Source of the DNA: Pseudobdellovibrionaceae bacterium
GTDB taxonomy: Bacteria; Bdellovibrionota; Bdellovibrionia; Bdellovibrionales; UBA1609
DNA length: 59,599 bases
Assembly: GCA_043720065.1 (NCBI GenBank)
Contig: JAYSTF010000130.1
Span: 1 to 59,599, forward strand
Reading direction: 5' to 3'
Positions 15,577-59,298 of the stretch are shown piece after piece (the first letter of the stretch is position 1; each line of letters opens with the position of its first letter). Position numbers and translations under genes: made by a program. Under the pieces are notes generated by a model. The model saw only the letters and a program-made list of their open reading frames with translations, was not told where the DNA came from and searched no databases.

Positions 15577-15631
15577 TTAGTGCCGCCTAAGCGGCGCTAA
15601 GACATTAGGTTAGTGCCGCCTAAGCGGCACT
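15577..15631. repeat. Two tandem copies of a 22-24-bp palindrome
   Basis: TTAGTGCCGCCTAAGCGGCGCTAA (15577) and TTAGTGCCGCCTAAGCGGCACT (15610). Confidence 0.85.
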
Positions 15632-17179: not shown

Positions 17180-17498
17180 TGGACAGTCTCGACAGCTGTG
17201 AGAACAAAAATGGTTTTCACGTGTACCGCTTAGTTTGAACATATACCTCCTGAATTGGCAGGCACAAATATTTTTCTTACCTCTAATTTTTATTGACTGA
17301 CTTACGTGCATTCCAATTTGGCCGTTATTTTATTCTATCTTGATTTTTGTTTTGAACTTGGTTTTTTCCCGAAATCGCCAGCCACAATGTCGTTTAAGCT
17401 TAACCTCGAGCCCGTCTATGTCGTGCTTTGCGGCCTATAAAAATCCAAGCTCAAAAATATGTGTTAGGTTTCTTTTAAATCCGCGAAGGAGGAATCTA

Positions 17499-18386
17499 AT
17501 GTCATCAGTGCTTGATAAAAACCAGCTCCAGTTGCATGAGCGCGCGATCCAGTTAAGTCGGGAATTCCGCCGTGTGGAAAGTGAGCTCATATTGATCATT
17601 GGCGAAATCGATCAACAAACGTTTTTCAAACGACTGGGCTATGCTAGTCTGTTTACTTATGCCGTTGGCGCGTTGGGACTAAGTGAGGCTAATGCTTACT
17701 CCTTTATTTCTGTGGCTCGCAAGAGCCGCGAAATTCCGGAACTAAAAACCGCGGTCATTGAACAAAAAATCACAGTTGCCAAGGCTAGTCGAATCGTGGC
17801 CGCGATTACTAAGGAGAATGCGCCCGATTTAGTTAAATTTGCAGAGACGCACACTACCCGCCAAACTGAAATTGAAGTGGCGCGCCTTCAGCCAAGCGCT
17901 GCGGTTTCAGATAGAATTAGGTTTAAGGGAGAGGATCTTGTTCAACTTGAATGCGGGATCACAAATGGCACTCATGAAAAACTTGAACGGGTAAAGTCAA
18001 TTTTAGCGGCTAAGGGTCAGTTTAGCCTGGATAAAGTTCTATCAGAGGTTTTGGACGATTACTTACAACGGCATGATCCAGTTAAAAAGGCTGAGAGAGT
18101 GCTCGCAAAGAAGCCGAAAACTACAAAACTCTGCACGCTCAGAGTTCGGCCTGGTTCAAAACGAATCCCGCTTCCCGCCCGCACCAGACATCAGGTTCAC
18201 GCACGAGATCAAGGTCGCTGCACTCATACTAATGAAAACGGCGAGCGCTGTGGGAATGATCGGTGGATTGAACTTCACCATGTCCAACTCGTAAGCAATG
18301 GGGGTGGCAATGAGGTGGAAAACCTAACGATACTTTGTGGTTTTCATCATGATTTGGTGCACCAGTTGAGTTTGCCGCTGGTTTGA
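17499..18386 (+). CDS. HNH endonuclease with DUF222-like helical N-terminus, copy 1 (295 aa)
   Basis: RBS AGGAGG; LGYASLFTYAVGALGLSE; RDQGRC..C..WIELHH..GGGN..NL..LCGFHH. Confidence 0.9.
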   Translation: MSSVLDKNQLQLHERAIQLSREFRRVESELILIIGEIDQQTFFKRLGYASLFTYAVGALGLSEANAYSFISVARKSREIPELKTAVIEQKITVAKASRIVAAITKENAPDLVKFAETHTTRQTEIEVARLQPSAAVSDRIRFKGEDLVQLECGITNGTHEKLERVKSILAAKGQFSLDKVLSEVLDDYLQRHDPVKKAERVLAKKPKTTKLCTLRVRPGSKRIPLPARTRHQVHARDQGRCTHTNENGERCGNDRWIELHHVQLVSNGGGNEVENLTILCGFHHDLVHQLSLPLV

Positions 18387-18569
18387 GAGGCTGTGTATAG
18401 TCATTGGCAGCGGAACGTTCGTGCCGGACGACTTGGGACAACACCAGCGACGTCGCGGGGGAAACCGGCCTATAAGATTTACTTGTCAGAAGATTGGATG
18501 TCGCTCCCTCTCACCACTTAGAATAATCTTATCAAGACTTATTGAAATTTAAACTTTGGAGCTATCGCT

Positions 18570-18974
18570 ATGAAACTTTCCACTTGGTTCCTGTTCGGCA
18601 TTTCAGCGCCAATCTTATTTAGCACTCAGGCACACTCCGCCGACTGTGAGGCACATGTGAAGCCTGTAGAATCCCCGTCAGAACTGCCCGGCCTTCCTAA
18701 CAGAGGAACGCCAGTGAATCTTAAAAAATTAGGCGATCCATACGAAACTTTTGTTCTAGAAGACTCGCATCCAAGCCTCGCCGGCTATCAAAGCATCGTA
18801 AACATTTATCCGAATGTGAATTTGGTCACCGCTCGGATCGACAATAGCGCTCAAGCGCGACACCTCTCCTTCACGGGCGGGCTAGATGCTACAGGCAAAA
18901 TTACCTTCCGCTTTCAGCTTTCTAAAGATGAATTTCTAGATGTCCGTTGTCAGAAGACAAGTCGATTAAAATAG
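18570..18974 (+). CDS. Secreted hypothetical protein
   Basis: Signal peptide ending AHS, GGAG RBS. Confidence 0.65.
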   Translation: MKLSTWFLFGISAPILFSTQAHSADCEAHVKPVESPSELPGLPNRGTPVNLKKLGDPYETFVLEDSHPSLAGYQSIVNIYPNVNLVTARIDNSAQARHLSFTGGLDATGKITFRFQLSKDEFLDVRCQKTSRLK

Positions 18975-19138
18975 ATATGGCAAATTACGCTAAGTAATTT
19001 TTAGGCCACGCAAGCAATGCTCGCTCATCAGCTGCCTAAAGATCGAACTTACTGTAAACGTTACCAGGATATTATTTGAAGAGTCACAAGTCTTTTAGTT
19101 TGAGTTACGTTAATCACCAACTCAATGAAAGGTCCTTT

Positions 19139-19486
19139 ATGAATAAGTTGAATGTTCTGATGACTGCACTGTTGCTTATGTCAAATCAAAGCACTGCATT
19201 TGCGAAGGCAGATGATGCATCGATTTCAAAATTTATAAGAGGCACCGTGTGTCGGGCGATTGACGCAAAATATCCCAACTCCCTAGTCGGTATCGATGGC
19301 CGTCCAGGCTGGCTTGTATGCCGTGAAGGTGGCGCACGCTTTACTCGCCCAGAACCTCAGGCAGATCCAACCTACCTTGCAATTGCTGCGAATATTAGGG
19401 CGGGGAATCCAATGTCTTGCGTTGCACGTGTTCAGCAGCCATCTCGGGCTAAGACCCCTGGCATTATTGTGGCTTGTTGGCAGTAG
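19139..19486 (+). CDS. Secreted hypothetical protein (4 Cys)
   Basis: Signal peptide ending AFA. Confidence 0.65.
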   Translation: MNKLNVLMTALLLMSNQSTAFAKADDASISKFIRGTVCRAIDAKYPNSLVGIDGRPGWLVCREGGARFTRPEPQADPTYLAIAANIRAGNPMSCVARVQQPSRAKTPGIIVACWQ

Positions 19487-19683
19487 GCCCATGAGAACGC
19501 TTGGCTAAAGCTCTTTTATGGATTCGAAAGCGATCTTTATAAACAACCTTAGAAGCCGACCAGAGCACCCCTACGCTTTAACCAAGCACACGCTCGAATT
19601 CCCGCACAAATCGTAAACGGGGTCATCCTTTTGGTTGCCGGGAATTACCCGCGATGTTCATTGTAGCCTTGGTGTTCGCTGCT

Positions 19684-19910
19684 GAAATTCTGGACGACTA
19701 CTTGAGACGCCATGATCCAGTTAGAAAGGCCGAGCGTTTCCTTGCGAAAAAGCCGAAAACCGAAAGGCTCTGCGCGCTCAGAGTTCGGCCCGGTTCGAAG
19801 CGAACGTCCTTTCCCGCCCGCACCAACCATCAAGTTCATGCCCGAGATCGAGGTCGATGCACTCATACTAATGAAAATGGCGATCGTTGTGAAAATGATC
19901 GATGGATAGA
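19684..19910 (+). pseudogene. Internal fragment of the same HNH endonuclease
   Basis: EILDDYLRRHDPVRKAER...RDRGRCTHTNENGDRCENDRWIE matches both intact copies; both ends missing. Confidence 0.9.
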
Positions 19911-20024
19911 ACCGGCCAAAACCATTCCTTTTTTGTCACTGTATACTTCCTATGCAGCTCTGATCCTGTGTATTGGTTCAGGTGTTGCTTAGGTACCGGC
20001 ACTTCGAATGCAATGGAGTGTAGA

Positions 20025-20978
20025 ATGACAAAAATCATTTGTTTGATCGGGCTAATGTTGAGTCAAGCTGCACCGGTTTCCGCGCAGTCGGCCCACTTTC
20101 TTGATCAATCCAAACTCGTGGCAATTGCTGATCGAGTCGTAGTGTTAGCTACCCAAGAACGTATGGACTCTTCGGCCGAAGAGACCGAGTTTTTTGACCG
20201 TATAGCCCGAATACATAAGGCGGCTGCAGAAGATAAACTCGATTTTAGAGAACAAATGGCTTTGAAGGCGATTAATTTTCTTGGTGTTCAGCCCAGTCGA
20301 ACAGGTGTCGGATATTGTTTGGGATTCGTTCTTACTCCCACGGTCATCCTAACTGCGAAGCATTGCAGCTTGGGCTTTAGATCATCCTCTGCTCCCGGAT
20401 ACGTTCTAAGATATGATCTGAAAACAAATGAGTGGAAGATTTCCAGATTCTCTCAGCAAATGATCACCATGGGTCCCATACCCAAAACTAATCATCCTAT
20501 TGGTCTATGGACCACCGGTCCTGATATTGCGCTCGTCAAAATTGATTCATCTCAGCCGGTGGATATTTTTAAGAATGAATATGATTTTCAGGTCGAGCCA
20601 CCAAAGAATGCCGATCGATGTTTCGCATTCGACTGGTACAACTTCCCACAGAATTTGAAGTCACTGAGTGTCGACAGCCCCGAATTAATGGCCGCAGTGA
20701 CGGGAGTGTGGGATCAAACCGATCGCACTTTCTTCACCCGTTATATGGGACTCGGAATGGAACTATTTGATCGTGCGGGCAACTACGAGACTACGACGAT
20801 GAAAAAGCCGGGTCACATAAAGCCCGGAAACTCGGGCGGCTCTGTTGTTTGCGTAAATGACAGCAAGAGAATTTCAATATCCGCAGTCGTTAGCTCAGGC
20901 AAACCATTTAACGAAAAATATGTCGGCCTGAGCCTCATTAATGCGCAGGTTCAAGCTTGGATCCAACAGAATTTATAG
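20025..20978 (+). CDS. Secreted trypsin-like serine protease
   Basis: Signal peptide; LTAKHC, DIAL and GNSGGS catalytic-triad motifs. Confidence 0.85.
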   Translation: MTKIICLIGLMLSQAAPVSAQSAHFLDQSKLVAIADRVVVLATQERMDSSAEETEFFDRIARIHKAAAEDKLDFREQMALKAINFLGVQPSRTGVGYCLGFVLTPTVILTAKHCSLGFRSSSAPGYVLRYDLKTNEWKISRFSQQMITMGPIPKTNHPIGLWTTGPDIALVKIDSSQPVDIFKNEYDFQVEPPKNADRCFAFDWYNFPQNLKSLSVDSPELMAAVTGVWDQTDRTFFTRYMGLGMELFDRAGNYETTTMKKPGHIKPGNSGGSVVCVNDSKRISISAVVSSGKPFNEKYVGLSLINAQVQAWIQQNL

Positions 20979-21098
20979 TAGACCGGCCAAAACCATCGGC
21001 CAATGTATCTGGGTTGCTCATGCCGGTCGTAGGATCAAATTGGGCCCTTACCTTGCATAATTGAAGGCAAAACTGCCCGTAGGCGAAAGAGGTCGACG

Positions 21099-22385
21099 TT
21101 GATTCGCTCTGAGCGAAATTTTTGGTGCCGCTTTTTGGCGTTGGCGATTGTCTTGGCCGGCTTTTGTCATGGACTCAGCGCTTCGGCAAAGGACAGACGC
21201 TTCGAAACTATCGACCTCGAATGCGCCAAATTATTGGGCGCGGAACCTGAAGTCATAGCCTTAGACAGCAGTATTCAGATCCTTAAAAACGAAGACGTAA
21301 GAAAAAGGGTCTTTGCTAAGGTCAATTCAACCAAATTCAAAGTGATGGGCGACTTTTCGGATCCCATATTTCTTAGCACGATTGAACAGATGCAGACAGA
21401 GTTGGCGAACGTCGACGACCGCTTGAAAAAGGCTGGATATTCGTGGCTTTTTCGCAAGACTCTGAGCCCGTATAAGGCGCTACTCACTACAGCCCTATTG
21501 CTTCACCGTTTGAACCCGAGTTACCATGGTACTTTGTCCGTAGGACTGAAATTCACTGCATTCATGAGCCTAGTAAGTTTTCTCGAAAAAGGAATTGGCG
21601 AAGACATTTGGGCATTGACCAAACCGGCAAGCTGGACCGAGCCTGCGTTCAATGAGGCATTCAGTTTGATCCTAATTTCGTTTCTCAATGCCTCTTTTGC
21701 GAACCACAATGTACAGGCTGCGATTGAATTCTCGGCAAGCACTGGAATATTATTTCTGCCGACTTTAGCACCGCTTAGTGAAGCGCACTTCAATCGTCTG
21801 TGGGCTCGCCGCATATTTCCGATTGGGCTTGCAGCTCGGCCGGTAAACTTCGATGGGCAAATAGCCGTGCTGCGATATCCCAAGCACGATTTCGACCACG
21901 CAATATTTATGTTTAATAGCAATTCAGCCGATCTCGACCTATTCTCAGGCGCTGGCCAATTTATTAAGTTAAATTGGACCCATCGCTTTATACCCCATCG
22001 CGACTTAGTCCAATTTAAAACCCAAACGCAGAGTGCCGAGATATTAGATCTCCCCATATTAAATGAGCTCGAGCGTTTCCGGATGGATGAATTAGTTGTG
22101 CCAGAATCCGGGATATCTCGTGATATGATTGAGGAAGCATTTTTTAGCATTCGCCATGAGAATTATAAGTTACCCGGAAGCTCCAGATTTATGGCCGCTG
22201 CAATCTCTAACGTTCAAGAATTTTTCAAAAATGAAGATAGTTGGAACATCGAAAAGAACAGGTGGCGAATCGCGCAAATGTGGCTCTATCTTCGATGGGC
22301 GCGCTCCATTCCGGAACTAAAGGCGGCCATTATTCCTTCCGAAGTCGAAGAACGAAAACTTCGCGAATTCGGATTAACTTTTTAA
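21099..22385 (+). CDS. Secreted hypothetical protein
   Basis: 428-aa ORF, signal peptide ending ASA, HDFDHA motif. Confidence 0.65.
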   Translation: MIRSERNFWCRFLALAIVLAGFCHGLSASAKDRRFETIDLECAKLLGAEPEVIALDSSIQILKNEDVRKRVFAKVNSTKFKVMGDFSDPIFLSTIEQMQTELANVDDRLKKAGYSWLFRKTLSPYKALLTTALLLHRLNPSYHGTLSVGLKFTAFMSLVSFLEKGIGEDIWALTKPASWTEPAFNEAFSLILISFLNASFANHNVQAAIEFSASTGILFLPTLAPLSEAHFNRLWARRIFPIGLAARPVNFDGQIAVLRYPKHDFDHAIFMFNSNSADLDLFSGAGQFIKLNWTHRFIPHRDLVQFKTQTQSAEILDLPILNELERFRMDELVVPESGISRDMIEEAFFSIRHENYKLPGSSRFMAAAISNVQEFFKNEDSWNIEKNRWRIAQMWLYLRWARSIPELKAAIIPSEVEERKLREFGLTF

Positions 22386-22747
22386 GGCGTTTAATTACCT
22401 TTTGGATGCCGGGAATTACCTGCGGACGTCGCGGGTAGGCTTGAGGCAATCAATCGCGATAATGCTTTTAATTGTGTTTCACACAGCTCAATTGGACCGA
22501 TATTAATTGGCGCGCATTTTTTCTTCCTTATACTTTTTCTTGACCGACTTTCGCGCATCCCAATTCGGGCGCTGTTCAATTTAATTTTGAATTTTTCATT
22601 GAAAGCGATTCTGCATTCGAATTGACCGTTATACTAACGTTTAAGCTTAACAGCGAGCCCCGCAATGTCAGGCTCGGTGGTATTGAGAAATTCATACCCA
22701 AAAGCGTGTGATAGATTCTCTGTTCAAATCCGCGAAGGGGGAATCTT

Positions 22748-23635
22748 ATGTCTTCAATGCTTGATAAAAACCAGCTCGAGCTTCATGAGCGCGCGCTCCA
22801 GTTAAGTCGGGAATTCCGCCGAAAGGAAAGTGAGCTCATATTGATCATAGGCGAAATTGATCAACAAAAGTTTTTCAAACGACTGGGCTATGCTAGTCTG
22901 TTTACTTATGCCGTTGGCGCGTTGGGATTAAGTGAGGCCAATTCTTACGCATTTATTGCTGTAGCTCGCAAGAGTCGTGAAATCCCGGAGTTGAAGATCG
23001 CTGTGATTGAGCAAAAAATCACAGTCGCTAAGGCTAGTCGAATCGTGGCCGCGATTACTAAGGAGAATGCACCCGATCTAGTTAAATTTGCAGCGGCGCA
23101 CACTACCCGCCAAACTGAAGTTGAGGTGGCGCGTCTTCAGCCAAGCGCTGCGGCTTCGGATAGAATTAGGTTTAAGGGAGAGGATCTTGTTCAACTTGAA
23201 TGCGGAATCACAAAAGGCACTCTTGAAAAACTTGATCGTGTAAAGTCAATATTAGCGGCTAAGGGTCGGTTTAGCCTGGATAAAGTTCTATCGGAGGTTC
23301 TGGACGATTACTTACAGCGGCATGATCCAGTTAGAAAGGCGGAGCGTGTCCTTGCGAAAAATCAAAAAACCAAAAAATTCTGCGCGCTCAGAGTTCGGCC
23401 GGGATCGAAACGAGCACCGCTTCCCGCTCGCACCAAACATCAGGTTCACGCACGAGATCGAGGTCGATGCACTCATACTAATGGAAAAGGCGGTCGTTGC
23501 ACGAATGACCGATGGCTTGAACTTCATCATATCCAGCCTGTTAGCAGAGGGGGCGGCAATGAGGTCGAAAACCTAACGACGCTCTGTGGTTTTCATCATG
23601 ATTTGGTTCACCAGTTGAGTTTGCCGCTGCTTTGA
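22748..23635 (+). CDS. HNH endonuclease with DUF222-like N-terminus, copy 2 (295 aa)
   Basis: Same length as copy 1; about 36 aa differences by manual count (~88% identical); HNH motifs intact. Confidence 0.9.
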   Translation: MSSMLDKNQLELHERALQLSREFRRKESELILIIGEIDQQKFFKRLGYASLFTYAVGALGLSEANSYAFIAVARKSREIPELKIAVIEQKITVAKASRIVAAITKENAPDLVKFAAAHTTRQTEVEVARLQPSAAASDRIRFKGEDLVQLECGITKGTLEKLDRVKSILAAKGRFSLDKVLSEVLDDYLQRHDPVRKAERVLAKNQKTKKFCALRVRPGSKRAPLPARTKHQVHARDRGRCTHTNGKGGRCTNDRWLELHHIQPVSRGGGNEVENLTTLCGFHHDLVHQLSLPLL

Positions 23636-23798
23636 GGGGCGAGGATCACCCGTAGGCAACTGAGCAGATGTGATGAGCCGCGTGGAACCTCGCCCTTGCG
23701 AGTGATCCCGAACCGGGCGCCCGCGGGGCGCGCCGAGTGACTCAATTCGCCTCGTCTTTTACCCCGAGCTGGGTCTCGCAATTGCAAAGACAATCCTC

Positions 23799-24590
23799 AT
23801 GAAGATCGTCGCTACAATCCTCACGCTACTGTTTAGCTTTAATTCAAACGCTCAGAGCGTTTCAGCTCAAAACAGCAATCACTCCATTTTAGGTTTAATG
23901 GCCTGCCAAGCGGCGCTTTCTCGCTCTCACGATGTTTTCGATATCGGCCGGCTTGAAGCCATGAAAGTTCAGGCGGAGCCGGATTCAACCACATTTCTTT
24001 ATCCAACTGGTTTGATTGCAAGTTCGATGGGGGAAGTCGTGGAGCTGCGCGGGCCACATTACGTCCACCCCACCGGGTTTTATAAATCTTCGATGGGATT
24101 GAGCGCCAAGGACTTTCTCGTCGAAATGCTTGGGCAAAAGCCGAGAGGCCTTGGTCAACGCATCTTGATCGCTCATAGTGGCGGCGGCGCATTGGCCAAA
24201 GGACTTAGGGAGCGAGGCTATTTGGCATTTAGTGCTGAAACCTCCGTCTCCCTCGAGCAAGCACAGTCGGGAAATTACCTACTCGCAGAGCCCACTTGGT
24301 CGATAGCCAAAGACCTCTCATTTGACATCATCATCGCCTGGTATGGCCCCGTGAATCGCATCCTTGATATGGGTGCCACCGAATTGACCCAGATACTCAA
24401 CGAATATGAGCGAATTCTTTATCCCGGATCCAAAGTGATTATTGGTCCATTTCCCACCGACGAAGCCTCACAAGTTGAAAACAGAATTAAGTTATTTCCC
24501 CGCTGGAAAGTGAAGCCCTCACGGGAATTCAAAACCGGCCAAGACAAATTAAAGGTCGTTGAACTTGTTTCTCCCTTAAGTCCCCGTTAA
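23799..24590 (+). CDS. Signal-peptide-bearing protein with a degenerate class I SAM-methyltransferase fold
   Basis: RILIAHSGGGALAKGL, SFDIII, EYERILYPGSKVII. Confidence 0.6.
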   Translation: MKIVATILTLLFSFNSNAQSVSAQNSNHSILGLMACQAALSRSHDVFDIGRLEAMKVQAEPDSTTFLYPTGLIASSMGEVVELRGPHYVHPTGFYKSSMGLSAKDFLVEMLGQKPRGLGQRILIAHSGGGALAKGLRERGYLAFSAETSVSLEQAQSGNYLLAEPTWSIAKDLSFDIIIAWYGPVNRILDMGATELTQILNEYERILYPGSKVIIGPFPTDEASQVENRIKLFPRWKVKPSREFKTGQDKLKVVELVSPLSPR

Positions 24591-33129: not shown

Positions 33130-33903
33130 ATGCGCTTCGTTTTATGGATAGCTCTAGGGCTCGGTTTCCTTGGCTGTAATTCTACCGATATAAAACCCGA
33201 AACTCCATTAACCCCTCCAGCGCCAACCTGGAATTCACCTGTTAATTCTGTAACCGTTATGACGTTCAGCGTGCAACGAGAGACCACACTTGAGCAATTA
33301 GGCGATTCTATTCGAGCCGGCCGCAATGGCATAGGGCCCGACATTTTAATTTTAGGGGAAGTTAAAAGTAAGGCGTTCTTGCGCCGATTAGTCGACGAAG
33401 AGCTAAAGGGCCTAGGTTATACGTCAATAATTTTAGTTGAGGGAAAGCGCTCGCACAGGCCCCATGTCGCAATCATAGTTAAGTTAAAGACTGTGGGAAA
33501 ACCTAAGCTTCACGAAAACCAGAAGATTCTTGAAGCCGCCATTAAAATGCCTGACGGTCGCATAGTTAAAGTGTTTGCCGTTCACTTGCCAGCTCCACCG
33601 AAGCCAAGCGATCTGCGAGTCGAGGCGATGAAGTTCCTCAACTCACTTAAAAAACGGCTGCCTCAAGGGCAGCTTGCAATTGCAGCTGGCGATTTCGGCA
33701 TAACAAATGAAGAAGACGCTCAGTCGAGAGTCATTGAGCGGTTTGCAGACCAAGAGTGGCTTGTCGCCCACAAACTCGGATGCAAGGACTGTCAGGGCGT
33801 GATTTTAATGAGCAAAGAATTCTACGACGGCGGCCTGGACTGGAAGGTTCTACGGGCAAGCGTGCGCTCAGTGAACGGCGCAAGCGCTGTGGACTTCGAA
33901 TGA
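33130..33903 (+). CDS. Degenerate endonuclease/exonuclease/phosphatase-fold lipoprotein
   Basis: Lipobox FLGC, GPDILILGEV, AVHLP, AGDFG; no C-terminal SDH. Confidence 0.65.
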   Translation: MRFVLWIALGLGFLGCNSTDIKPETPLTPPAPTWNSPVNSVTVMTFSVQRETTLEQLGDSIRAGRNGIGPDILILGEVKSKAFLRRLVDEELKGLGYTSIILVEGKRSHRPHVAIIVKLKTVGKPKLHENQKILEAAIKMPDGRIVKVFAVHLPAPPKPSDLRVEAMKFLNSLKKRLPQGQLAIAAGDFGITNEEDAQSRVIERFADQEWLVAHKLGCKDCQGVILMSKEFYDGGLDWKVLRASVRSVNGASAVDFE

Positions 33904-34006
33904 AATGTACCACATGACTTTCCGCAACCCAGTGTGTCTTAGGCCCACCTGTCCAGGTGGGCCTAAGACACACTGAGTTGCGGAAAGTCATGTGGTACAT
34001 TTCATT
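33899..34006. repeat. 108-bp near-perfect palindrome between convergent genes
   Basis: 53-bp arms, one mismatch, 2-nt centre (TC). Confidence 0.95.
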
Positions 34007-46481: not shown

Positions 46482-46809
46482 CACCCGCGACGTCGCCAAT
46501 ACATGTCGGTTAAGGATTTATGATAATTCTATGGGCCCACCAGTTCCGTATGCTCTGGATTGCCGGAACAGGACCATCGATCATATGCGTCGCACTTAAA
46601 TAGCGTTTCGCTGGACCGAAACGAGATTGAATTTTACGCAAGAGATTAAAAACCCGCGGAGTACGACTACAGGAGGCTACAACTGACGCATATGATCGAT
46701 GGTCCTGTTCCGGCAATTGAAGGTGGAACGGCTTGGCGGACCTTCAACGGCTTAAGTATTTTTCAGTCACAAACTCCTTAACCGACATGTATTGGCGACG
46801 TCGCGGGTG
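46482..46809. mobile_element. 328-bp non-coding nested inverted-repeat element (MITE/REPIN-like), copy A
   Basis: Perfect 35-bp terminal IR (46482-46516/46775-46809) and perfect 33-bp inner IR (46559-46591/46685-46717); related to 49257-49584. Confidence 0.85.
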
Positions 46810-47298: not shown

Positions 47299-48354
47299 AT
47301 GGATTCAAGATACCCCCACCTCAGCCGCCTGAAAATACCCCATGAGGTTGTTCATACGGACACCCTGGTGAAATCGCTTATGCGCATTGCTGAAACCAAG
47401 CCCTTTTTGGATGAGTACCTGGGCACCCCGCAAGAAATAAAACTCCTGCGCAAAGCCAAGGTACGGGCCATCACCTACTCCAATCAGATTGAAGGCAATA
47501 ACCTTGGCGAAAGTGAAGTGACGGCCGTCCTTCAGGGCAAGCGCGTGGCTGGTTCTAAAAAGGACGTTAAAGAAGTACAGAACTATCACGAGGCCCTCGA
47601 TTACGTGGAGCGCCTGATAGAAGATTCTAGGCCACTTAAAGTTGCTGATATGTGCGACCTACAAAAGCTGGTGACTCAGGGGCTGATCGAAGAAAGACAG
47701 TGCGGGCGTGTTCGCACAATACCAGTCAGTATCGTCAATGCTGCCACCGGCGAGAAAATTGACGAATGCCCGCAACCTCATGAACTTACGGACTTGCTCG
47801 ATGATCTCTGGCGCTGGCTCGATGACACTAAAGATATGAGTCCTTTTGCCAGAGCCTTTGCTTTTCATTTTATCGCGGTATCCATACACCCCTTTGCCGA
47901 TGGTAATGGCCGCACGGTGCGCCTCATGCAGCACCTGCTGCTCTTGCTAGGCGGCCAGCGTCTTGCGAGGTTCGTACCTAGTGAGACCGCCATCATGCGT
48001 GGCCGTGACCGCTACTATTCGGCCATTCGCCAAAGCCGGTCCCTGGAATCACTGCATCCCATTTTAGAATTTCTGGCGGAATGCTTTGCGGTATCCGCAG
48101 AAGAAGTTGTCGAAGACGGCCGCAAGCTTTTGCGTGAAAGCGCCGGCAAAACTCCAGAGGCTAGGCATCGCAAGATTTTGGCACACGCTAAAAAGCAGGA
48201 TGAGTTTTCCATACAGAATGTGGTCGAATGGATGCCCGATGTCCCTCGCCGCACAGTGGAGCGAGACGTGGCGACCCTGGTTAAAAAGCGCGCACTCAAA
48301 ACCAAAGGCGAATCGAAAGCCAGAATTTACAGCCTGGCGAAATGGCAGAAATAA
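47299..48354 (+). CDS. Fic-family protein with C-terminal HTH
   Basis: HPFADGNGRTVR; SNQIEG inhibitory motif; VPRRTVERDVATLV. Confidence 0.93.
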   Translation: MDSRYPHLSRLKIPHEVVHTDTLVKSLMRIAETKPFLDEYLGTPQEIKLLRKAKVRAITYSNQIEGNNLGESEVTAVLQGKRVAGSKKDVKEVQNYHEALDYVERLIEDSRPLKVADMCDLQKLVTQGLIEERQCGRVRTIPVSIVNAATGEKIDECPQPHELTDLLDDLWRWLDDTKDMSPFARAFAFHFIAVSIHPFADGNGRTVRLMQHLLLLLGGQRLARFVPSETAIMRGRDRYYSAIRQSRSLESLHPILEFLAECFAVSAEEVVEDGRKLLRESAGKTPEARHRKILAHAKKQDEFSIQNVVEWMPDVPRRTVERDVATLVKKRALKTKGESKARIYSLAKWQK

Positions 48355-49256: not shown

Positions 49257-49584
49257 CACCCGCGACGTCGCCAATACATGTCGGTTAAGGAGTTTGTGAC
49301 TGAAAACTACTTAAGCCGCTGAAGGTTCGCCAAACCGTCCCGCCCTCAATTGCCGGAACAGGACCATCGATTATATGGCGTCAGTCATGGCCTCTTTAAG
49401 TCGTTCTCCGCGGGTTGCCAATTGTCCTGCCTAAAATTCAATCTCGTTTAGATCCAGCGAATCGCTATTTAAGTGCGACGCACATGATCGATGGTCCTGT
49501 TCCGGCAATTGAGGGCACACGAAACTGGTGGGCCCATAGAATTGTCCTAAGTCCTTTAACCGACATCTATTGGCGACGTCGCGG
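49257..49584. mobile_element. Nested inverted-repeat element, copy B (inverted relative to copy A)
   Basis: CACCCGCGACGTCGCCAATACATGTCGGTTAAGGA ... TTAACCGACATCTATTGGCGACGTCGCGG; inner IR ATTGCCGGAACAGGACCATCGA. Confidence 0.85.
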
Positions 49585-53869: not shown

Positions 53870-53945
53870 CCCATTAGTTTCGTGTGCGCTCGATTGCCGG
53901 AACAGGACCATCGAGGGCTGAACGGTTCGGCGGACCTTCAACGGC
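53870..53945 (+). mobile_element. Internally deleted remnant of the nested-IR element (copy C)
   Basis: AGTTTCGTGTGC..ATTGCCGGAACAGGACCATCGA joined to GGCGGACCTTCAACGGC. Confidence 0.8.
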
Positions 53946-53946
53946 A

Positions 53947-54237
53947 TCCAGGTCGCACACAACCAGTTCATGCTGAGTTGACCCTTCTGATTTTTTCTTA
54001 TTTGCCACGACGCTTGTTTCTTTGATTTTTCTTCAGCTCAGTGAAAAGAACTTTAGTGTTCGTAGCAGTTGCTGGCTTTTTCGTTTCCCAGTCGCTGAAC
54101 TCACTCAACGCTTCCATAGATTCTTTTGCGTAAAAAGTTTTTTGAGAATCGGGAACGAAAGTACCCGCTGAAATTCGAATTTCGCTATCGCTGACTTCTT
54201 CGACGCGAACCCCAGAGAACGCAATCTTGCCGATCAT
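53947..54237 (-). pseudogene. Partial duplicate of the TA pair at 55670-56327
   Basis: 53947-54209 aligns with 55983-56245; antitoxin lacks its N-terminus, toxin keeps about 20 codons. Confidence 0.85.
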
Positions 54238-55298
54238 GGTTTTATGTACCGAGTTGTTCGGCCCACGCCCACGCGTTTCACCAATTTAAGTTCCAGTAAG
54301 CGGTTCAAAATTTGTTTTGCGCTGACGGCTGGAATCTTAAGGCGGGCCGCAATCAACTTTGTCGAAATTTCCTCCCGTTTATCGAGTAGCGTGAGCGCCT
54401 TTTGCTGATTTGGCGAAAGCAAGGCTTCCTTCGGTGCCGAACGCAAAAAACCCTGTAGCACTTCTATCTGGCGTACCATCGCATCGAGAAAAAAATGAAT
54501 CCAGCGAGCGACCTCCGCCTTAGGTGACTTGCCATCCTTCTGCGCGGTCCTCAGAGCTATATAGTATTCAACCTTATGGTCTTCGATGATCTTTTCAAGT
54601 GAAGCGTAGGGCATATAGGTATACCCCGCGTGGAGCAGCAGTAAATTAGTGAGTATGCGGCTCAAACGACCATTGCCATCGTGAAATGGATGGATAGCCA
54701 AGAACTCCACGATAAAATTAGCGATGACTAGAGCGGGATGATTTTCGCGAGATTTAAGTTGTGCCTTTGTCCATTCGATCAACTCCCGCATTTCAGAAGG
54801 TGTGAGATGAGGTTCAGTTGGATTGAACAGAACTGTTTCACCACCAGCTCGATCGAAGGCGACAACTTTGTTTGGTGCTGACTTGTATCTGCCTTTTCGC
54901 TTCTGATCCTTCTCGGAATATCTCAACAGCTGATCGTGAAATTGCAAGATCACACCTTCGGTAAAGGGGATGTCGCGGTAGGAGTCGAAAACAGTCCGCA
55001 GGACTTCGGCATAACCGGCGACTTCTTGCGAATCGCGATCTGTTAGCTTGCTCACGCGCAGCCCTTTGAGCAGTTTCTCAACTTCCTTATCCGAAAGATG
55101 GCTACCCTCGATTCGCGTCGAGGCACCTGTCGATGTGACTACGATACTTCGCTTAAGCCTACCTAGGGCCTGCGGATTTGATACGGGTCCTACTTTCCAA
55201 AAGCCTTTGAACTCGTCAATCTTGGAGATTCTCGATATAATAGCCTTCAGGTCCTTCCCGGATATGTTCTCTAAGCGTTCTGTTAAATGGGTACTCAT
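54234..55298 (-). CDS. Fic-family protein with C-terminal HTH
   Basis: HPFHDGNGRLSR; STRIEG motif; GVGRTTRY. Confidence 0.93.
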   Translation of the reverse strand: MSTHLTERLENISGKDLKAIISRISKIDEFKGFWKVGPVSNPQALGRLKRSIVVTSTGASTRIEGSHLSDKEVEKLLKGLRVSKLTDRDSQEVAGYAEVLRTVFDSYRDIPFTEGVILQFHDQLLRYSEKDQKRKGRYKSAPNKVVAFDRAGGETVLFNPTEPHLTPSEMRELIEWTKAQLKSRENHPALVIANFIVEFLAIHPFHDGNGRLSRILTNLLLLHAGYTYMPYASLEKIIEDHKVEYYIALRTAQKDGKSPKAEVARWIHFFLDAMVRQIEVLQGFLRSAPKEALLSPNQQKALTLLDKREEISTKLIAARLKIPAVSAKQILNRLLELKLVKRVGVGRTTRYIKP

Positions 55299-55437
55299 AA
55301 CTATATCCAATTATATCTGATTGTATCCGATAAAGAAAAGGTTATTTATGGGTGTAATTACGGGTAAGTGCTGGACAAAGGGCCTGTCCCTACCGGCACG
55401 TTTCCCGCCACATGGCGGACAAGTGGCGGGCAAATAC

Positions 55438-56967: not shown

Positions 56968-57564
56968 ATGAAGCCCAAAGCCGCTCTCATTAAAATAAAG
57001 TCTCTCCTGCGGTTCTCCAGCTTTAGGAGTAGAGACGCTCGCAAACTCGGCGTGAATGCCGCGACTCTCGCGTACTACGTCAAAGCTGGCGACCTTGAAC
57101 GCATTGGCCACGGCGTATACCGGGGAACGAAGGCGCCTTCCATTCAAGATTTCCGCTGGGAAGACCTCATTGACGCGGTCATCAGAACTCGTGGCGGGGT
57201 TGTCTGTCTCACATCAGCTCTAGCCCTCTACGGACTGACGGAAGAAATTCCAAGGCAGCACTGGATCGCGATTGATAATCACACGCGCCACCGTGCGAAC
57301 CGCTCAACCAAGATTATCAGAATGAGAAATCTCTCTTCTGGCAAAACCAAAATGGATCTGGGAGGCATTTCAATCCCGATTTTTGATCGCGAACGCACCA
57401 TCGTCGATGCGTTCAGATACCTCAGCAAGGAAACGGCGATCAAAGCCCTCAAGACAGCCCTTAACTCTAAACGCAGCGAGAAAGTCGACTTCGAGAAACT
57501 GAGAAAATATGCGAAGGCGCTCAGAGTCCAGATCGAGCCTTACATTCTGGCGGTGACGACATGA
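56968..57564 (+). CDS. abiEi: Type IV TA antitoxin, AbiEi family
   Basis: LERIGHGVY, VCLTSALALYGLTEEIP, DRERTIVDAF. Confidence 0.9.
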   Translation: MKPKAALIKIKSLLRFSSFRSRDARKLGVNAATLAYYVKAGDLERIGHGVYRGTKAPSIQDFRWEDLIDAVIRTRGGVVCLTSALALYGLTEEIPRQHWIAIDNHTRHRANRSTKIIRMRNLSSGKTKMDLGGISIPIFDRERTIVDAFRYLSKETAIKALKTALNSKRSEKVDFEKLRKYAKALRVQIEPYILAVTT

Positions 57565-58430
57565 AAGCAGAAGCGCTGAAAGCAAGAATTAAGGTTATCG
57601 CGCAAGAGCATCACAAGACGTTCAATGAAGTTTGGAAGCAACTGCTTCTGGAGCGATTTCTAGCGAGACTGGCCCGTTCAAATTACCATGATAAGTTCAT
57701 CTTCAAAGGCGGTCTTCTGCTCGCTCAGTATCTGATCATCGGAAGAGAAACGACAGATGCTGATTTCTTGATGACAAAGATGAAATCCGAAGCCGGCGCA
57801 ATAGAAACAGCATTCAAAGATATCACCGCAATCGACTTGGCAGATGGATTCAGTTTTTCTTACGCTGATATTGAAGAACTGAATCAACCGCATATGGAAT
57901 ATCCGGGCTTTCGAGTCATTCTCGATGCAAGTCTCGAAAAAATGAAAGATCGAATTCAAATCGACATCGGCGTTGGGGATCTCGTTGATGCCGTTTCGAA
58001 CCAGTTTCACCCTTTCGAATACAAAGGAAAACCAATTTTCGCAGGAGAAATTTCCCTCCTCACATATCCGGCCGAAGCCATTTTCGCCGAGAAGCTCGAA
58101 ACGCTCATTTCAAAGGGTGCAGCAAACAGTAGAATGAAGGACTATCACGACGTAATCTTAATGATCCGCGAACCCGAGCTGCTTGATGTTGATCGACTGC
58201 GAATCGCTGTAGATCAAACCTTCAAGCACCGAGGAACAGTTCTCAATATTCCGGTCGACTTCGATTTGACTGGAGCTGAGTTTCTTCAGAAGCTTTGGAC
58301 CCAACACCTGCGCGGCCTCGGCGCAGTCAAGGAGCAGCTCAATCTCCCTGAAAAGATATCCGACGTTTTGAAAGAGATGAATGTTTGGATTGTGCCGAAG
58401 CTTAAACCAACAGCCTCGTCAGGGTCCTGA
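57561..58430 (+). CDS. abiEii: Type IV TA toxin, AbiEii nucleotidyltransferase
   Basis: FIFKGGLLL..RETTDADF, AEKLE, NSRMKDYHD. Confidence 0.92.
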   Translation: MKAEALKARIKVIAQEHHKTFNEVWKQLLLERFLARLARSNYHDKFIFKGGLLLAQYLIIGRETTDADFLMTKMKSEAGAIETAFKDITAIDLADGFSFSYADIEELNQPHMEYPGFRVILDASLEKMKDRIQIDIGVGDLVDAVSNQFHPFEYKGKPIFAGEISLLTYPAEAIFAEKLETLISKGAANSRMKDYHDVILMIREPELLDVDRLRIAVDQTFKHRGTVLNIPVDFDLTGAEFLQKLWTQHLRGLGAVKEQLNLPEKISDVLKEMNVWIVPKLKPTASSGS

Positions 58431-58521: not shown

Positions 58522-59298
58522 ATGCCCGACTTTAAGGAAAAAATATTAGATGCGATCATTCAAGATCTTAAAGCGAATCCCAAAGCTTTGGCTGCTTGGG
58601 AAGGGGGATCTGCTGCGACTGGAACTACTGATCAGTATTCAGATATTGATCTGGCGGTCGTCGGTTCCGATTCAGTTGATATACTTTTTGAATCTATTGA
58701 ATCGACGCTGAATCGGATCTCAAGGATCACCCATAAATGGTTAGAGCCAAAGTCATTTTGGCCCGGCTGTTTTCAGCGAGTGTATATTCTTGCGGACTCG
58801 CCGAAACACTTCTTTGTCGACGTCGCTATATTCCTCCGCGAGTCAGACGATCTTCTACGTGAATTCATGGAGATCGATCGACATGGAAACCTTATTGTAC
58901 AATTTGATAAGTTAGCAATCCTCAAACCGCGAAGAGGCGATCCCGAAACACTAAAAGCCAAACAGCTTAACCGCCTAAGTGAAATTGAAGCCGCATTCCC
59001 TGTTTATAAAACCAATGTCATAAAGGAATTAGATCGGGAACATTCCATTGATGCTTTTGCTTTTTATTTTGGTGGTATGGTGAGACCGTTGGTGGAAACT
59101 ATGGGAATGCTCCACCGTCCTTTTCGCTTCGATTTCGGTTTGCGGTATCTTCACAAAACTTTTCCTATGGAAGATCAGAAACTTATCGAAAGATTTTTAT
59201 ATGTCAGAGATATGGACGAATTGAGAAAGCATGTTAACGAGATCGATATGTTATTAAAAAAAATAGCAAATCAGGTTCGAGATCGGCTTAGCAGATAA
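58522..59298 (+). CDS. Pol-beta-superfamily nucleotidyltransferase with helical C-terminus
   Basis: AWEGGSAATGTTDQYSDIDL. Confidence 0.85.
   Translation: MPDFKEKILDAIIQDLKANPKALAAWEGGSAATGTTDQYSDIDLAVVGSDSVDILFESIESTLNRISRITHKWLEPKSFWPGCFQRVYILADSPKHFFVDVAIFLRESDDLLREFMEIDRHGNLIVQFDKLAILKPRRGDPETLKAKQLNRLSEIEAAFPVYKTNVIKELDREHSIDAFAFYFGGMVRPLVETMGMLHRPFRFDFGLRYLHKTFPMEDQKLIERFLYVRDMDELRKHVNEIDMLLKKIANQVRDRLSR

What the first reader, a model, noticed from the sequence alone, without database searches (positions are those of the whole stretch)
17270..23800. HNH endonuclease copies share a terminal palindrome with the non-coding nested-IR elements: candidate HNH-mobilised system
Seen: the 10-bp palindrome GCGACGTCGC forms both ends of the 330-bp elements (46487, 46795, 49262, 49573). 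It recurs 60 bp after HNH copy 1 (18447, GCGACGTCGCGGG). A collapsed form TACCTGCGGACGTCGCGGGTA lies upstream of copy 2 (22417-22437), and TACCCGCGATGT lies just before the broken copy (19646). The last two share a 27-bp context, CCTTTTGGWTGCCGGGAATTACCYGCG (19627 and 22398, 2 mismatches). Known: DUF222-HNH genes form dispersed repeats (REP13E12-type), and I know of no established mobility mechanism for them. Inference: the HNH could be the autonomous nuclease and the hairpin elements its non-autonomous partners, with ACCC-GCGACGTCGC-GGGT as the empty or target site, by analogy to RAYT/REPIN but with a different enzyme class. No DDE or HUH transposase is visible in the window.
Basis: partly seen in the sequence, partly recalled or inferred. 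Interest (0 to 1): 0.85.

Follow-up and report, generated by a model that had tools for sequence, protein, structure and literature searches.

The report
Nuclease subfamilies carry their own palindromes
In this bacterium most subfamilies of a many-copy DNA-cutting gene carry their own short palindrome inside the gene and scattered between genes, likely as the protein's docking site, and the 330-base hairpin elements are ordinary mini-transposons that landed in one such palindrome rather than partners moved by the nuclease.

Summary
The 330-bp elements are IS4-subgroup MITEs: their ends fit the subgroup consensus, the same ends frame MITEs with 10-bp target duplications in distant phyla, and the 10-bp palindrome at both ends is the duplicated target, not the element end. 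An ISAs1 element uses the same target. The target is a 16-bp palindrome ('A', about 40 copies) that lies in frame inside the linker of a different DUF222-HNH subfamily (contigs C4, C133), not the window's. Of 22 other-clade loci, 11 carry a linker palindrome that is also dispersed; the window's clade has its own, which is not. The pairing holds in relatives (33 genes with a flanking copy of the linker word against 7 elsewhere in the gene); a blind prediction held in 1 of 2 genomes. The N-terminal half is modelled as a ParB-like helix-turn-helix plus ribbon-helix-helix (modest Z), so the palindrome is likely the protein's own site; spreading by nicking is inferred only. I found no paper on this pairing; this scan noted it earlier in other genomes.

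The parts
17293..17498 (+). Conserved leader of HNH copy 1, starting at a sigma70-type -35 box
   Evidence: Alignment of 12 paralogue upstream regions, conserved from this box onward, ragged beyond; position
17499..18386 (+). DUF222-HNH copy 1 (window clade, 295 aa): predicted ParB-like HTH, RHH-like module, disordered linker, HNH
   Evidence: model of the 88%-identical copy 2
18127..18146 (.). Window clade's own in-frame linker palindrome ('W'); not dispersed in the genome
18444..18459 (.). Free-standing palindrome A (1 mismatch), about 60 bp after the stop of copy 1
19627..19657 (+). 27-bp direct repeat, copy 1, running into a half of palindrome A
19688..19912 (+). Broken window-clade fragment (residues about 182-258) with palindrome W at 19766-19785
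19902..20978 (+). Trypsin-like protease gene inside the 2.77-kb segment framed by the 27-bp repeats
   Evidence: Pfam Trypsin E 1e-7
21099..22385 (+). 428-aa ORF without a family, inside the same segment
22398..22437 (+). 27-bp direct repeat, copy 2, running into a degenerate full palindrome A (22417-22437)
22540..22747 (+). Conserved leader of HNH copy 2
22748..23635 (+). DUF222-HNH copy 2 (window clade, 295 aa)
   Evidence: Pfam HNH; AlphaFold model pLDDT 83.8
23376..23395 (.). Palindrome W in the linker of copy 2
46487..46496 (.). 10-bp target duplication, left (core of palindrome A)
46497..46794 (.). 298-bp IS4-subgroup MITE with terminal inverted repeats and a 33-bp inner inverted repeat
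46795..46804 (.). 10-bp target duplication, right
49262..49271 (.). 10-bp target duplication of the second MITE, left
49272..49572 (.). 301-bp second MITE copy, opposite orientation, 89% identical
49573..49582 (.). 10-bp target duplication of the second MITE, right
53870..53945 (.). Internally deleted relic of the MITE, no terminal repeats

Best explanation
The 330-bp elements are IS4-subgroup miniature transposons inserted into a dispersed 16-bp palindrome, and that palindrome is likely the DNA docking site of a different DUF222-HNH subfamily that carries it in frame in its own linker. Shown: each element reads palindrome arm, 10-bp core, terminal repeat ... terminal repeat, same 10-bp core, palindrome arm; ISAs1 and a second IS4-family element use these palindromes as targets too. 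Shown: this genome has 36 DUF222-HNH loci in many subfamilies, most with a subfamily-specific palindrome in the DNA coding the floppy linker before the HNH domain, and at least eight of these words are also dispersed between genes. Predicted: the N-terminal half is a ParB-like helix-turn-helix plus a ribbon-helix-helix dimer module, so a dimer would bind its 16-18-bp palindrome, with the copies at the gene's promoter and inside the gene acting as operators. Inferred, untested: the tethered HNH domain would nick beside bound sites, and repair by recombination would move gene copies to palindrome-rich spacers and leave or copy the short site. The window's three copies belong to a clade with its own, non-dispersed word; they sit next to palindrome A because these clusters are common landing zones, and some copies of this clade elsewhere ride between ISAs1 ends.
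For: MITE: the element end pattern gave 118+ hits in other species; of 80 loci fetched, 42 have an inverted partner within 700 bp and 22 of those a perfect, 31 a near-perfect 10-bp duplication of unrelated sequences; one locus frames an IS4 N-terminal transposase domain (E 6e-16); ends and duplication length fit Table 1 of PMC2266710 (passage). ISAs1 element on C149 (NCBIfam 260 bits) has a 10-bp duplication of a variant of the same core, and its other ends abut the core. Pairing: the most repeated 16-mer of the gene lies in the linker with 5-30 outside copies for 11 of 22 other-clade loci, at most 4 anywhere else in all 36 genes, at most 6 in 150 random ORFs. Relatives: strong linker palindrome in 26 of 117 genes against 3 of 430 control windows; best own-flank match in the linker for 33 genes, elsewhere 7, none 77, linker 17% of the CDS, swapped control 6 of 466; three words each confined to the few of 41 genomes that have the family; copy directly behind a -10-like box in three genes. 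Blind test: G086 has palindrome A in the linker of a gene whose recognition helix matches C4 at 9 of 10 residues, plus two upstream copies. Fold: ParB-parS DNA-binding domain Z 7.6, rmsd 3.0 over 99; KorB 6.6; Spo0J 6.2; RHH rows for residues 144-193. No arm-to-arm compensation outside the core, as expected of a duplex protein site.
Against: No binding or cutting was measured. All fold Z-scores are under 8 and Foldseek gave no E below 0.001. 91 of 117 genes lack a strong linker palindrome and 77 lack a flanking copy; the genes are related and not independent. The blind prediction failed in G246: 3 copies of A, none in or near its 9 family matches. Word similarity follows overall protein identity (rho 0.44) as well as the recognition helix (0.40); within identity bins rho is 0.21-0.58 on non-independent pairs. 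One dispersed family (H, 16 copies) and the MITE's inner arm have no cognate gene in the assembly. No IS4-subgroup transposase was found in this genome or 300 others of the order. Nothing here shows how a 20-40-bp site is copied to new places.
Confidence: 0.58

Rival explanations
1. The palindromes are the proteins' autoregulatory operators only; dispersed copies are scars left when gene copies flanked by two operators are deleted or decay, and the nuclease plays no active part in spreading them.
For: Copies sit at promoters and flank cognate genes; the window clade has no flanking copy of its word and no dispersed family; a clade of six loci lacks the HNH domain altogether and ends just after its palindrome; dispersed copies in G086 keep about 15 bp of linker flank.
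Against: Dispersed sites favour gaps between convergent genes (28 convergent, 11 divergent over nine families, against 196 and 402 gaps; hand tally, crude gene calls), mix with other families in clusters and carry no longer gene remnants; C136, C90 and C108 have dispersed words but no flanking copy within 600 bp.
Confidence: 0.2
2. The palindromes are REPs spread by the genome's Y1/RAYT-like transposases and have inserted in frame into the tolerant HNH linker.
For: 17 Y1_Tnp genes; REP-like location and clustering; six families share a 5-bp box about 14 bp from the centre (60 of 141 sites, background 1.6%), which hints at one common factor; in-frame repeat insertions are known (PMC3184786 passage).
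Against: 0 of 17 Y1 genes have palindrome A within 1.5 kb; those with flanking repeats have different ones; the words occur in the HNH linker, one per subfamily, and not in 150 control ORFs; no hairpin compensation outside the core.
Confidence: 0.1
3. The window clade spreads mainly as a passenger of ISAs1-ended non-autonomous transposons that target the palindromes, which alone explains its place beside palindrome A (compatible with the best explanation for the other clades).
For: ISAs1-type ends frame 2 of 16 clade loci on both sides (C146 with a 10-bp duplication inside another family's palindrome; C162) and touch 3 more on one side; an intact ISAs1 transposase is present.
Against: 11 of 16 loci, including all three in the window, show no such end (best match 6-9 mismatches of 19); flanks are ragged.
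Confidence: 0.08
4. One reading: the window's HNH is the autonomous enzyme, the 330-bp hairpin elements are its non-autonomous partners and the 10-bp palindrome is their end.
For: A loosely defined palindrome A lies within 600 bp of 6 of 14 clade loci against 60 of 936 background genes; no IS4-subgroup transposase was found nearby.
Against: The loose pattern was shaped on the window's own three cases, and the strict form is not enriched; the ends are IS4-type with variable 10-bp duplications in other phyla; 7 of 15 ends in this genome have other flanks; the clade's own word is W.
Confidence: 0.04

Closest known systems
RAYT (TnpA-REP) with REP/REPIN and BIME repeats
   Same: Species-specific 16-40-bp GC-rich palindromes, dispersed between genes, clustered in mosaics, flanking an enzyme gene, serving as IS targets (PMC3184786 passages).
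   Different: The enzyme is an HNH nuclease with a predicted ParB-like DNA-binding half, not an HUH/Y1 transposase; the palindrome lies inside the coding sequence; no strand-transfer chemistry is known for HNH domains (own knowledge).
ParB-parS, Noc-NBS, KorB-operator
   Same: Predicted fold of residues about 20-135 and 16-18-bp palindromic sites, subfamily-specific.
   Different: No N-terminal CTPase domain in the model, an HNH domain is fused, the gene is multi-copy and carries its site in frame; binding untested.
DUF222-HNH / REP13E12 repeats of mycobacteria
   Same: N-terminal half hits DUF222 in 33 of 95 members at E<=0.1, C-terminal HNH, dispersed multi-copy genes.
   Different: The papers found treat it only as a repetitive element (PMC10589994 passage); no cognate palindrome or mechanism seen in them. 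Whether mycobacterial members have the palindrome was not tested.
IS4-subgroup MITEs (such as cyanobacterial Nezha)
   Same: End consensus, 10-bp duplication, 80-490-bp size, strong secondary structure (Nezha described in PMC3184786).
   Different: Interior is unrelated to the cyanobacterial elements; preferred target here is palindrome A. The Nezha end sequence itself was not seen, so identity with Nezha is a lead.
IscB/OMEGA and free-standing homing HNH endonucleases
   Same: HNH domain fold; selfish multi-copy behaviour.
   Different: Only the HNH part matches IscB (27-41 bits, cut-off 175); no Rfam RNA in the window; the presumed site is kept inside the gene rather than destroyed by insertion.

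Membership tests
IS4-subgroup MITE (330-bp element) | Terminal inverted repeats fitting the IS4-subgroup end consensus | tested here: met
   Ends at 46497 and 46794 fit both conserved blocks of PMC2266710 Table 1; same end frames an Nterm_IS4 domain in L216
IS4-subgroup MITE (330-bp element) | 10-13-bp target site duplication | tested here: met
   10 bp at both window copies; 22 of 42 foreign elements perfect, 31 within 2 mismatches
IS4-subgroup MITE (330-bp element) | Short, non-coding, multi-copy with different flanks | tested here: met
   298 and 301 bp; related copies on about 15 contigs
IS4-subgroup MITE (330-bp element) | Cognate transposase in the same genome | tested here: inconclusive
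   No Nterm_IS4 in G000 (93% complete) or 300 order genomes; the IS4-family gene on C117/C62 has other ends
IS4-subgroup MITE (330-bp element) | Empty allele in a related strain | tested here: inconclusive
   No joint across the element in contigs of 4 runs of one study; element absent from 40 relatives
RAYT-REP | HUH/Y1 transposase flanked by the repeat | tested here: not met
   0 of 17 Y1 genes near palindrome A; the associated enzyme is HNH
RAYT-REP | Dispersed intergenic palindromes, clustered, biased to gene 3' ends, used as IS targets | tested here: met
RAYT-REP | Conserved tetranucleotide directly 5' of the hairpin | not tested
   Not scored; a different 5-bp box lies about 14 bp from the centre
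DUF222-HNH (REP13E12-like) | DUF222 N-terminal region | tested here: inconclusive
   33 of 95 members at E<=0.1, best 2e-7; window copies no hit at 1e-3; Atlas neighbour cluster 12% DUF222
DUF222-HNH (REP13E12-like) | C-terminal HNH domain, multi-copy | tested here: met
ParB-parS type | ParB-type helix-turn-helix DNA-binding fold | tested here: inconclusive
   Best N-terminal rows in four searches are ParB/KorB/Noc/Spo0J, but Z 5.2-7.6 and no Foldseek E<0.001
ParB-parS type | N-terminal CTPase domain | tested here: not met
   The model starts with a long helix at residue 7 and the ParB match starts at residue 22
ParB-parS type | Specific binding of the 16-bp palindrome | not testable with these tools
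   Needs EMSA, SELEX or ChIP
IscB/OMEGA | RuvC plus HNH over the family cut-off, with a guide RNA | tested here: not met
   27-41 bits against 175, HNH only; no Rfam match in the window
Homing endonuclease | Target site absent from (split by) the gene's own locus | tested here: not met
   The presumed site is intact inside and beside the gene; that it is the target is itself inferred
ISAs1-ended passenger element (window copies) | ISAs1-type ends around the gene | tested here: not met
   Absent at the three window loci; present at 5 of 16 clade loci elsewhere

The most novel reading that the evidence does not exclude
DUF222-HNH genes are a class of selfish element in which a ParB-like domain reads a palindrome encoded in the gene's own linker and the HNH domain nicks there, spreading both the gene and a REP-like family of that word. 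Protein and word diversify together, so one genome holds eight or more orthogonal enzyme-site pairs, and the resulting clusters become landing pads for IS elements and captured genes. This would be a second, transposase-independent origin of bacterial REP-like repeats and a natural library of site-specific nickases whose target can be read from their own gene.
Probability: 0.33. Interest if true: 0.87.

Novelty: new variant of a known kind. Interest (0 to 1): 0.66.

Why it matters
DUF222-HNH/REP13E12 genes are widespread repeats without a mechanism. A self-encoded, subfamily-specific palindrome gives each protein a predicted target that can be tested in one binding and nicking assay, and this genome offers a built-in specificity matrix of many non-cognate pairs. 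If the enzyme spreads its site, REP-like repeats have a source other than RAYT. The work also removes a false lead: the nested hairpin elements are conventional MITEs using the palindrome as a target.

Tried and rejected
Palindrome as element end: rejected. RAYT link to palindrome A: 0 of 17. Autonomous IS4-subgroup partner: none in G000 or 300 order genomes; element not found in 40 relatives. Guide or structured RNA: no Rfam match in the window; the leader alignment was not tested for covariation. Terminal repeats or duplications around the window's HNH copies: none. Hairpin or fold-back origin of dispersed copies: no compensation beyond the core except a weak excess in families F, P and S. 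Sequence profile against PDB: nothing useful. Foldseek: no E<0.001. Sequencing runs: no RNA holder listed; no empty-site joint in contigs. Papers: ten full-text searches found no description of the gene-palindrome pairing; the library lacks most subscription journals. Dropped rows: one generic HNH hit (C80) from the 37 profile hits; 138 of 225 relative matches were not analysed (87 best-scoring were); 74 of 117 genes without a confident site were left out. A systematic map of truncation breakpoints relative to the palindrome was not completed; only earlier outputs bear on it.
Full report
Observation. The five exact 10-bp cores, the collapsed form and the half form are at the stated places. The 27-bp context occurs only at 19627 and 22398 in the genome. 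The window is contig C35 of a 3.08-Mb, 174-contig, 93%-complete genome; Atlas neighbours of the protein are mostly Bdellovibrionota. The core occurs 41 times against about 8 expected, and it is the middle of a 16-bp palindrome, here called A, with 42 sites at up to 2 mismatches.

The 330-bp elements are MITEs. Each reads: arm of A, 10-bp core, terminal repeat, interior, inverted terminal repeat, the same core, other arm of A. Because the core is palindromic it looks like part of the inverted repeat, but it is the target duplication. A scan of species-representative genomes with the terminal pattern gave over 118 hits; among 80 fetched loci, mostly cyanobacteria and Polyangiaceae, 42 have an inverted partner within 700 bp, 22 of them with a perfect and 31 with a near-perfect 10-bp duplication of unrelated sequences. 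In one locus the same ends frame a broken transposase with an IS4 N-terminal domain. End pattern and duplication length fit the IS4 subgroup in Table 1 of PMC2266710 (passages seen). In this genome 8 recognisable ends abut the core and 7 have other flanks (three weaker rows not counted). No IS4-subgroup transposase was found here or in 300 genomes of the order, so the mover is missing or unassembled. A complete ISAs1 element on C149 has a 10-bp duplication of a variant core, and its other ends abut the core. REPs as IS targets are known (PMC3184786 passages).

Whose palindrome is A? A profile search found 36 DUF222-HNH loci (37 hits, one generic HNH dropped): 14 in the window's clade, 22 more distant. 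Palindrome A lies in frame inside two distant genes, C4 and C133, in the DNA coding the linker before the HNH domain, and also upstream of both and downstream of C133. Other subfamilies carry other palindromes at the same place, and these match other dispersed families. An unbiased scan counted, for every 16-mer of every gene, its copies outside HNH loci: the peak lies in the linker with 5-30 copies for 11 of the 22 distant loci; outside the linker no gene exceeds 4; 150 random ORFs reach at most 6 (AT-rich words) and 17 Y1 genes at most 8. The window's clade has its own linker word (W, 18127-18146) with at most 3 outside matches. Strict A is not enriched beside the window clade (2 of 14 against 44 of 936, p=0.14); the loose form is (6 of 14), but it was shaped on the window's three cases; any palindrome family is found at 9 of 14 against 156 of 936. 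The clade thus lands in palindrome-rich spacers generally. Five of 16 clade loci carry ISAs1-type ends, two on both sides, one with a 10-bp duplication inside another family's palindrome; the three window loci do not.

Relatives. The family is in 20 of 40 relatives. I analysed 87 of 225 matches from 18 genomes plus 30 genes of this genome. A strong linker palindrome is present in 26 of 117 genes against 3 of 430 control windows. The gene's best match in its own flanks is a linker word for 33 genes, another word for 7, none for 77; the linker is 17% of the CDS and swapped flanks hit in 6 of 466 pairs. In three genes the upstream copy follows a -10-like box directly. Three words were counted in 41 genomes: A has 38 sites here and 0-2 elsewhere; the second is confined to four and the third to two genomes, all with the family. 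Exact A occurs in only 2 of 300 further genomes of the order. I wrote down that both should hold a C4-type gene with A in its linker (sent together with the search and before its loci were read). G086 does, with a recognition helix matching at 9 of 10 residues and two upstream copies; G246 does not among its 9 matches.

Protein anatomy. The model of window copy 2 (pLDDT 83.8) shows a helical domain, a strand-helix-helix module, a disordered stretch at the palindrome-coded linker and an HNH domain. The helical domain's best rows are ParB-parS (Z 7.6, rmsd 3.0 over 99), KorB and Spo0J, with Noc and P1 ParB in Foldseek at weak E-values. The C4 N-terminal half (pLDDT 93.4) repeats this at Z 5.2-6.4 and adds ribbon-helix-helix rows (TraM, NikR, PutA). 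These scores are modest. ParB-family domains bind 13-18-bp palindromes as dimers (own knowledge; titles of the listed structures). DUF222 is hit by 33 of 95 members at E<=0.1. Word similarity rises with recognition-helix similarity within identity bins (rho 0.21-0.58) but follows overall identity as well, so co-evolution is only suggested. Dispersed sites keep the core and, in six families, a 5-bp box about 14 bp from the centre with a variable spacer (60 of 141 sites, background 1.6%; only 3 of 42 for A), and show no arm-to-arm compensation: the pattern of a duplex protein site.

Mechanism. Shown: MITE and ISAs1 insertion into the palindromes; one word per subfamily inside, beside and away from the gene. 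Predicted: the dimer binds its word and represses its own promoter. Inferred: HNH nicking beside bound sites drives recombination that moves genes and leaves or copies sites. Indirect hints are that a six-locus clade ends just after its word and that two fragments of the window clade resume 3 and 9 bp before W (C162, C142); a systematic breakpoint map was not completed. The 27-bp direct repeat ending in A frames a 2.77-kb segment (broken HNH, protease, unknown gene) and may mark an insertion by recombination at that site; no empty allele was seen.

Novelty. Ten paper searches (listings, plus passages of PMC3184786, PMC2266710 and PMC10589994) found no account of the pairing. Earlier notes of this scan report the same pairing and the ParB-like fold in other genomes; I had reached both before seeing them and tested them here. 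New here are many orthogonal pairs in one genome, the assignment of A away from the window's clade, the IS4 and ISAs1 reading, and the blind test. Verdict: observation confirmed, interpretation partly supported, new variant of a known kind, interest 0.66.

Noticed in passing
window 46559-46591 and 46685-46717; G000 C23:21242-21323, C47:1950-2031, C2:3155-3225, C62:763, C90:17477, C163:710: The MITE's inner arm also occurs outside MITEs, as inverted pairs or beside palindrome A, and carries the same 5-bp box; it may be the half-site of another HNH subfamily captured by the MITE. No cognate gene found.
   Followed up: partly
G000 C159, C23, C118, C122, C11, C55 (L045-L047, L113-L115): A clade of six loci encodes only the DNA-binding half and stops just after its palindrome: possible nuclease-free repressors.
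   Followed up: partly
G000 C146:55320-56910 (L104) and C162:3178-3986 (L112): Non-autonomous elements with ISAs1-type ends carrying a window-clade HNH gene as passenger; the 85-bp inverted repeat at C146 begins with the ISAs1 end.
   Followed up: yes
G000 C117:13833, C62:669, C41:22276 (L052, L012, L010): A second IS4-family element, split over contig ends, sits in the palindrome of the C90 subfamily with an apparent 9-bp duplication.
   Followed up: partly
G000, 16 sites such as C17:63222, C99:14882, C105:16779: Dispersed family H has no cognate gene in this assembly, while relatives G016 and G040 carry that word in the linkers of their own genes.
   Followed up: partly
window 33899-34006: 53-bp near-perfect inverted repeat of a family also found upstream of a RAYT-like gene on C52; a likely true REPIN-type element.
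   Followed up: no
window 15579-15631: Two tandem copies of another 20-bp palindrome family (15 sites in the genome) between exbB- and exbD-like genes; no HNH partner seen.
   Followed up: no
window 47299-48354, 54234-55310, 56968-58430, 58522-59298: Two Fic genes, each with a related hairpin upstream (47252, 55404), an AbiEi/AbiEii pair and a nucleotidyltransferase: a mobile or defence-rich end of the contig around the MITEs.
   Followed up: no
G246 C42:1294, C81:16796, C114:20541 (L301, L304, L307): Palindrome A embedded in roughly 60-bp near-perfect AT-rich inverted repeats, with no cognate gene found.
   Followed up: partly
L062 (G019): The linker holds a different palindrome whose translation resembles a repeat family known from other bacteria (recalled, not tested).
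   Followed up: no
window 22308-22334: The end of the 428-aa ORF contains 27 bp resembling a stretch of the HNH genes (70-78%); chance or a small relic.
   Followed up: no
G000, 17 loci (L001-L008 and others): Unusually many Y1/RAYT-like genes in several subgroups, most without obvious flanking repeats.
   Followed up: partly
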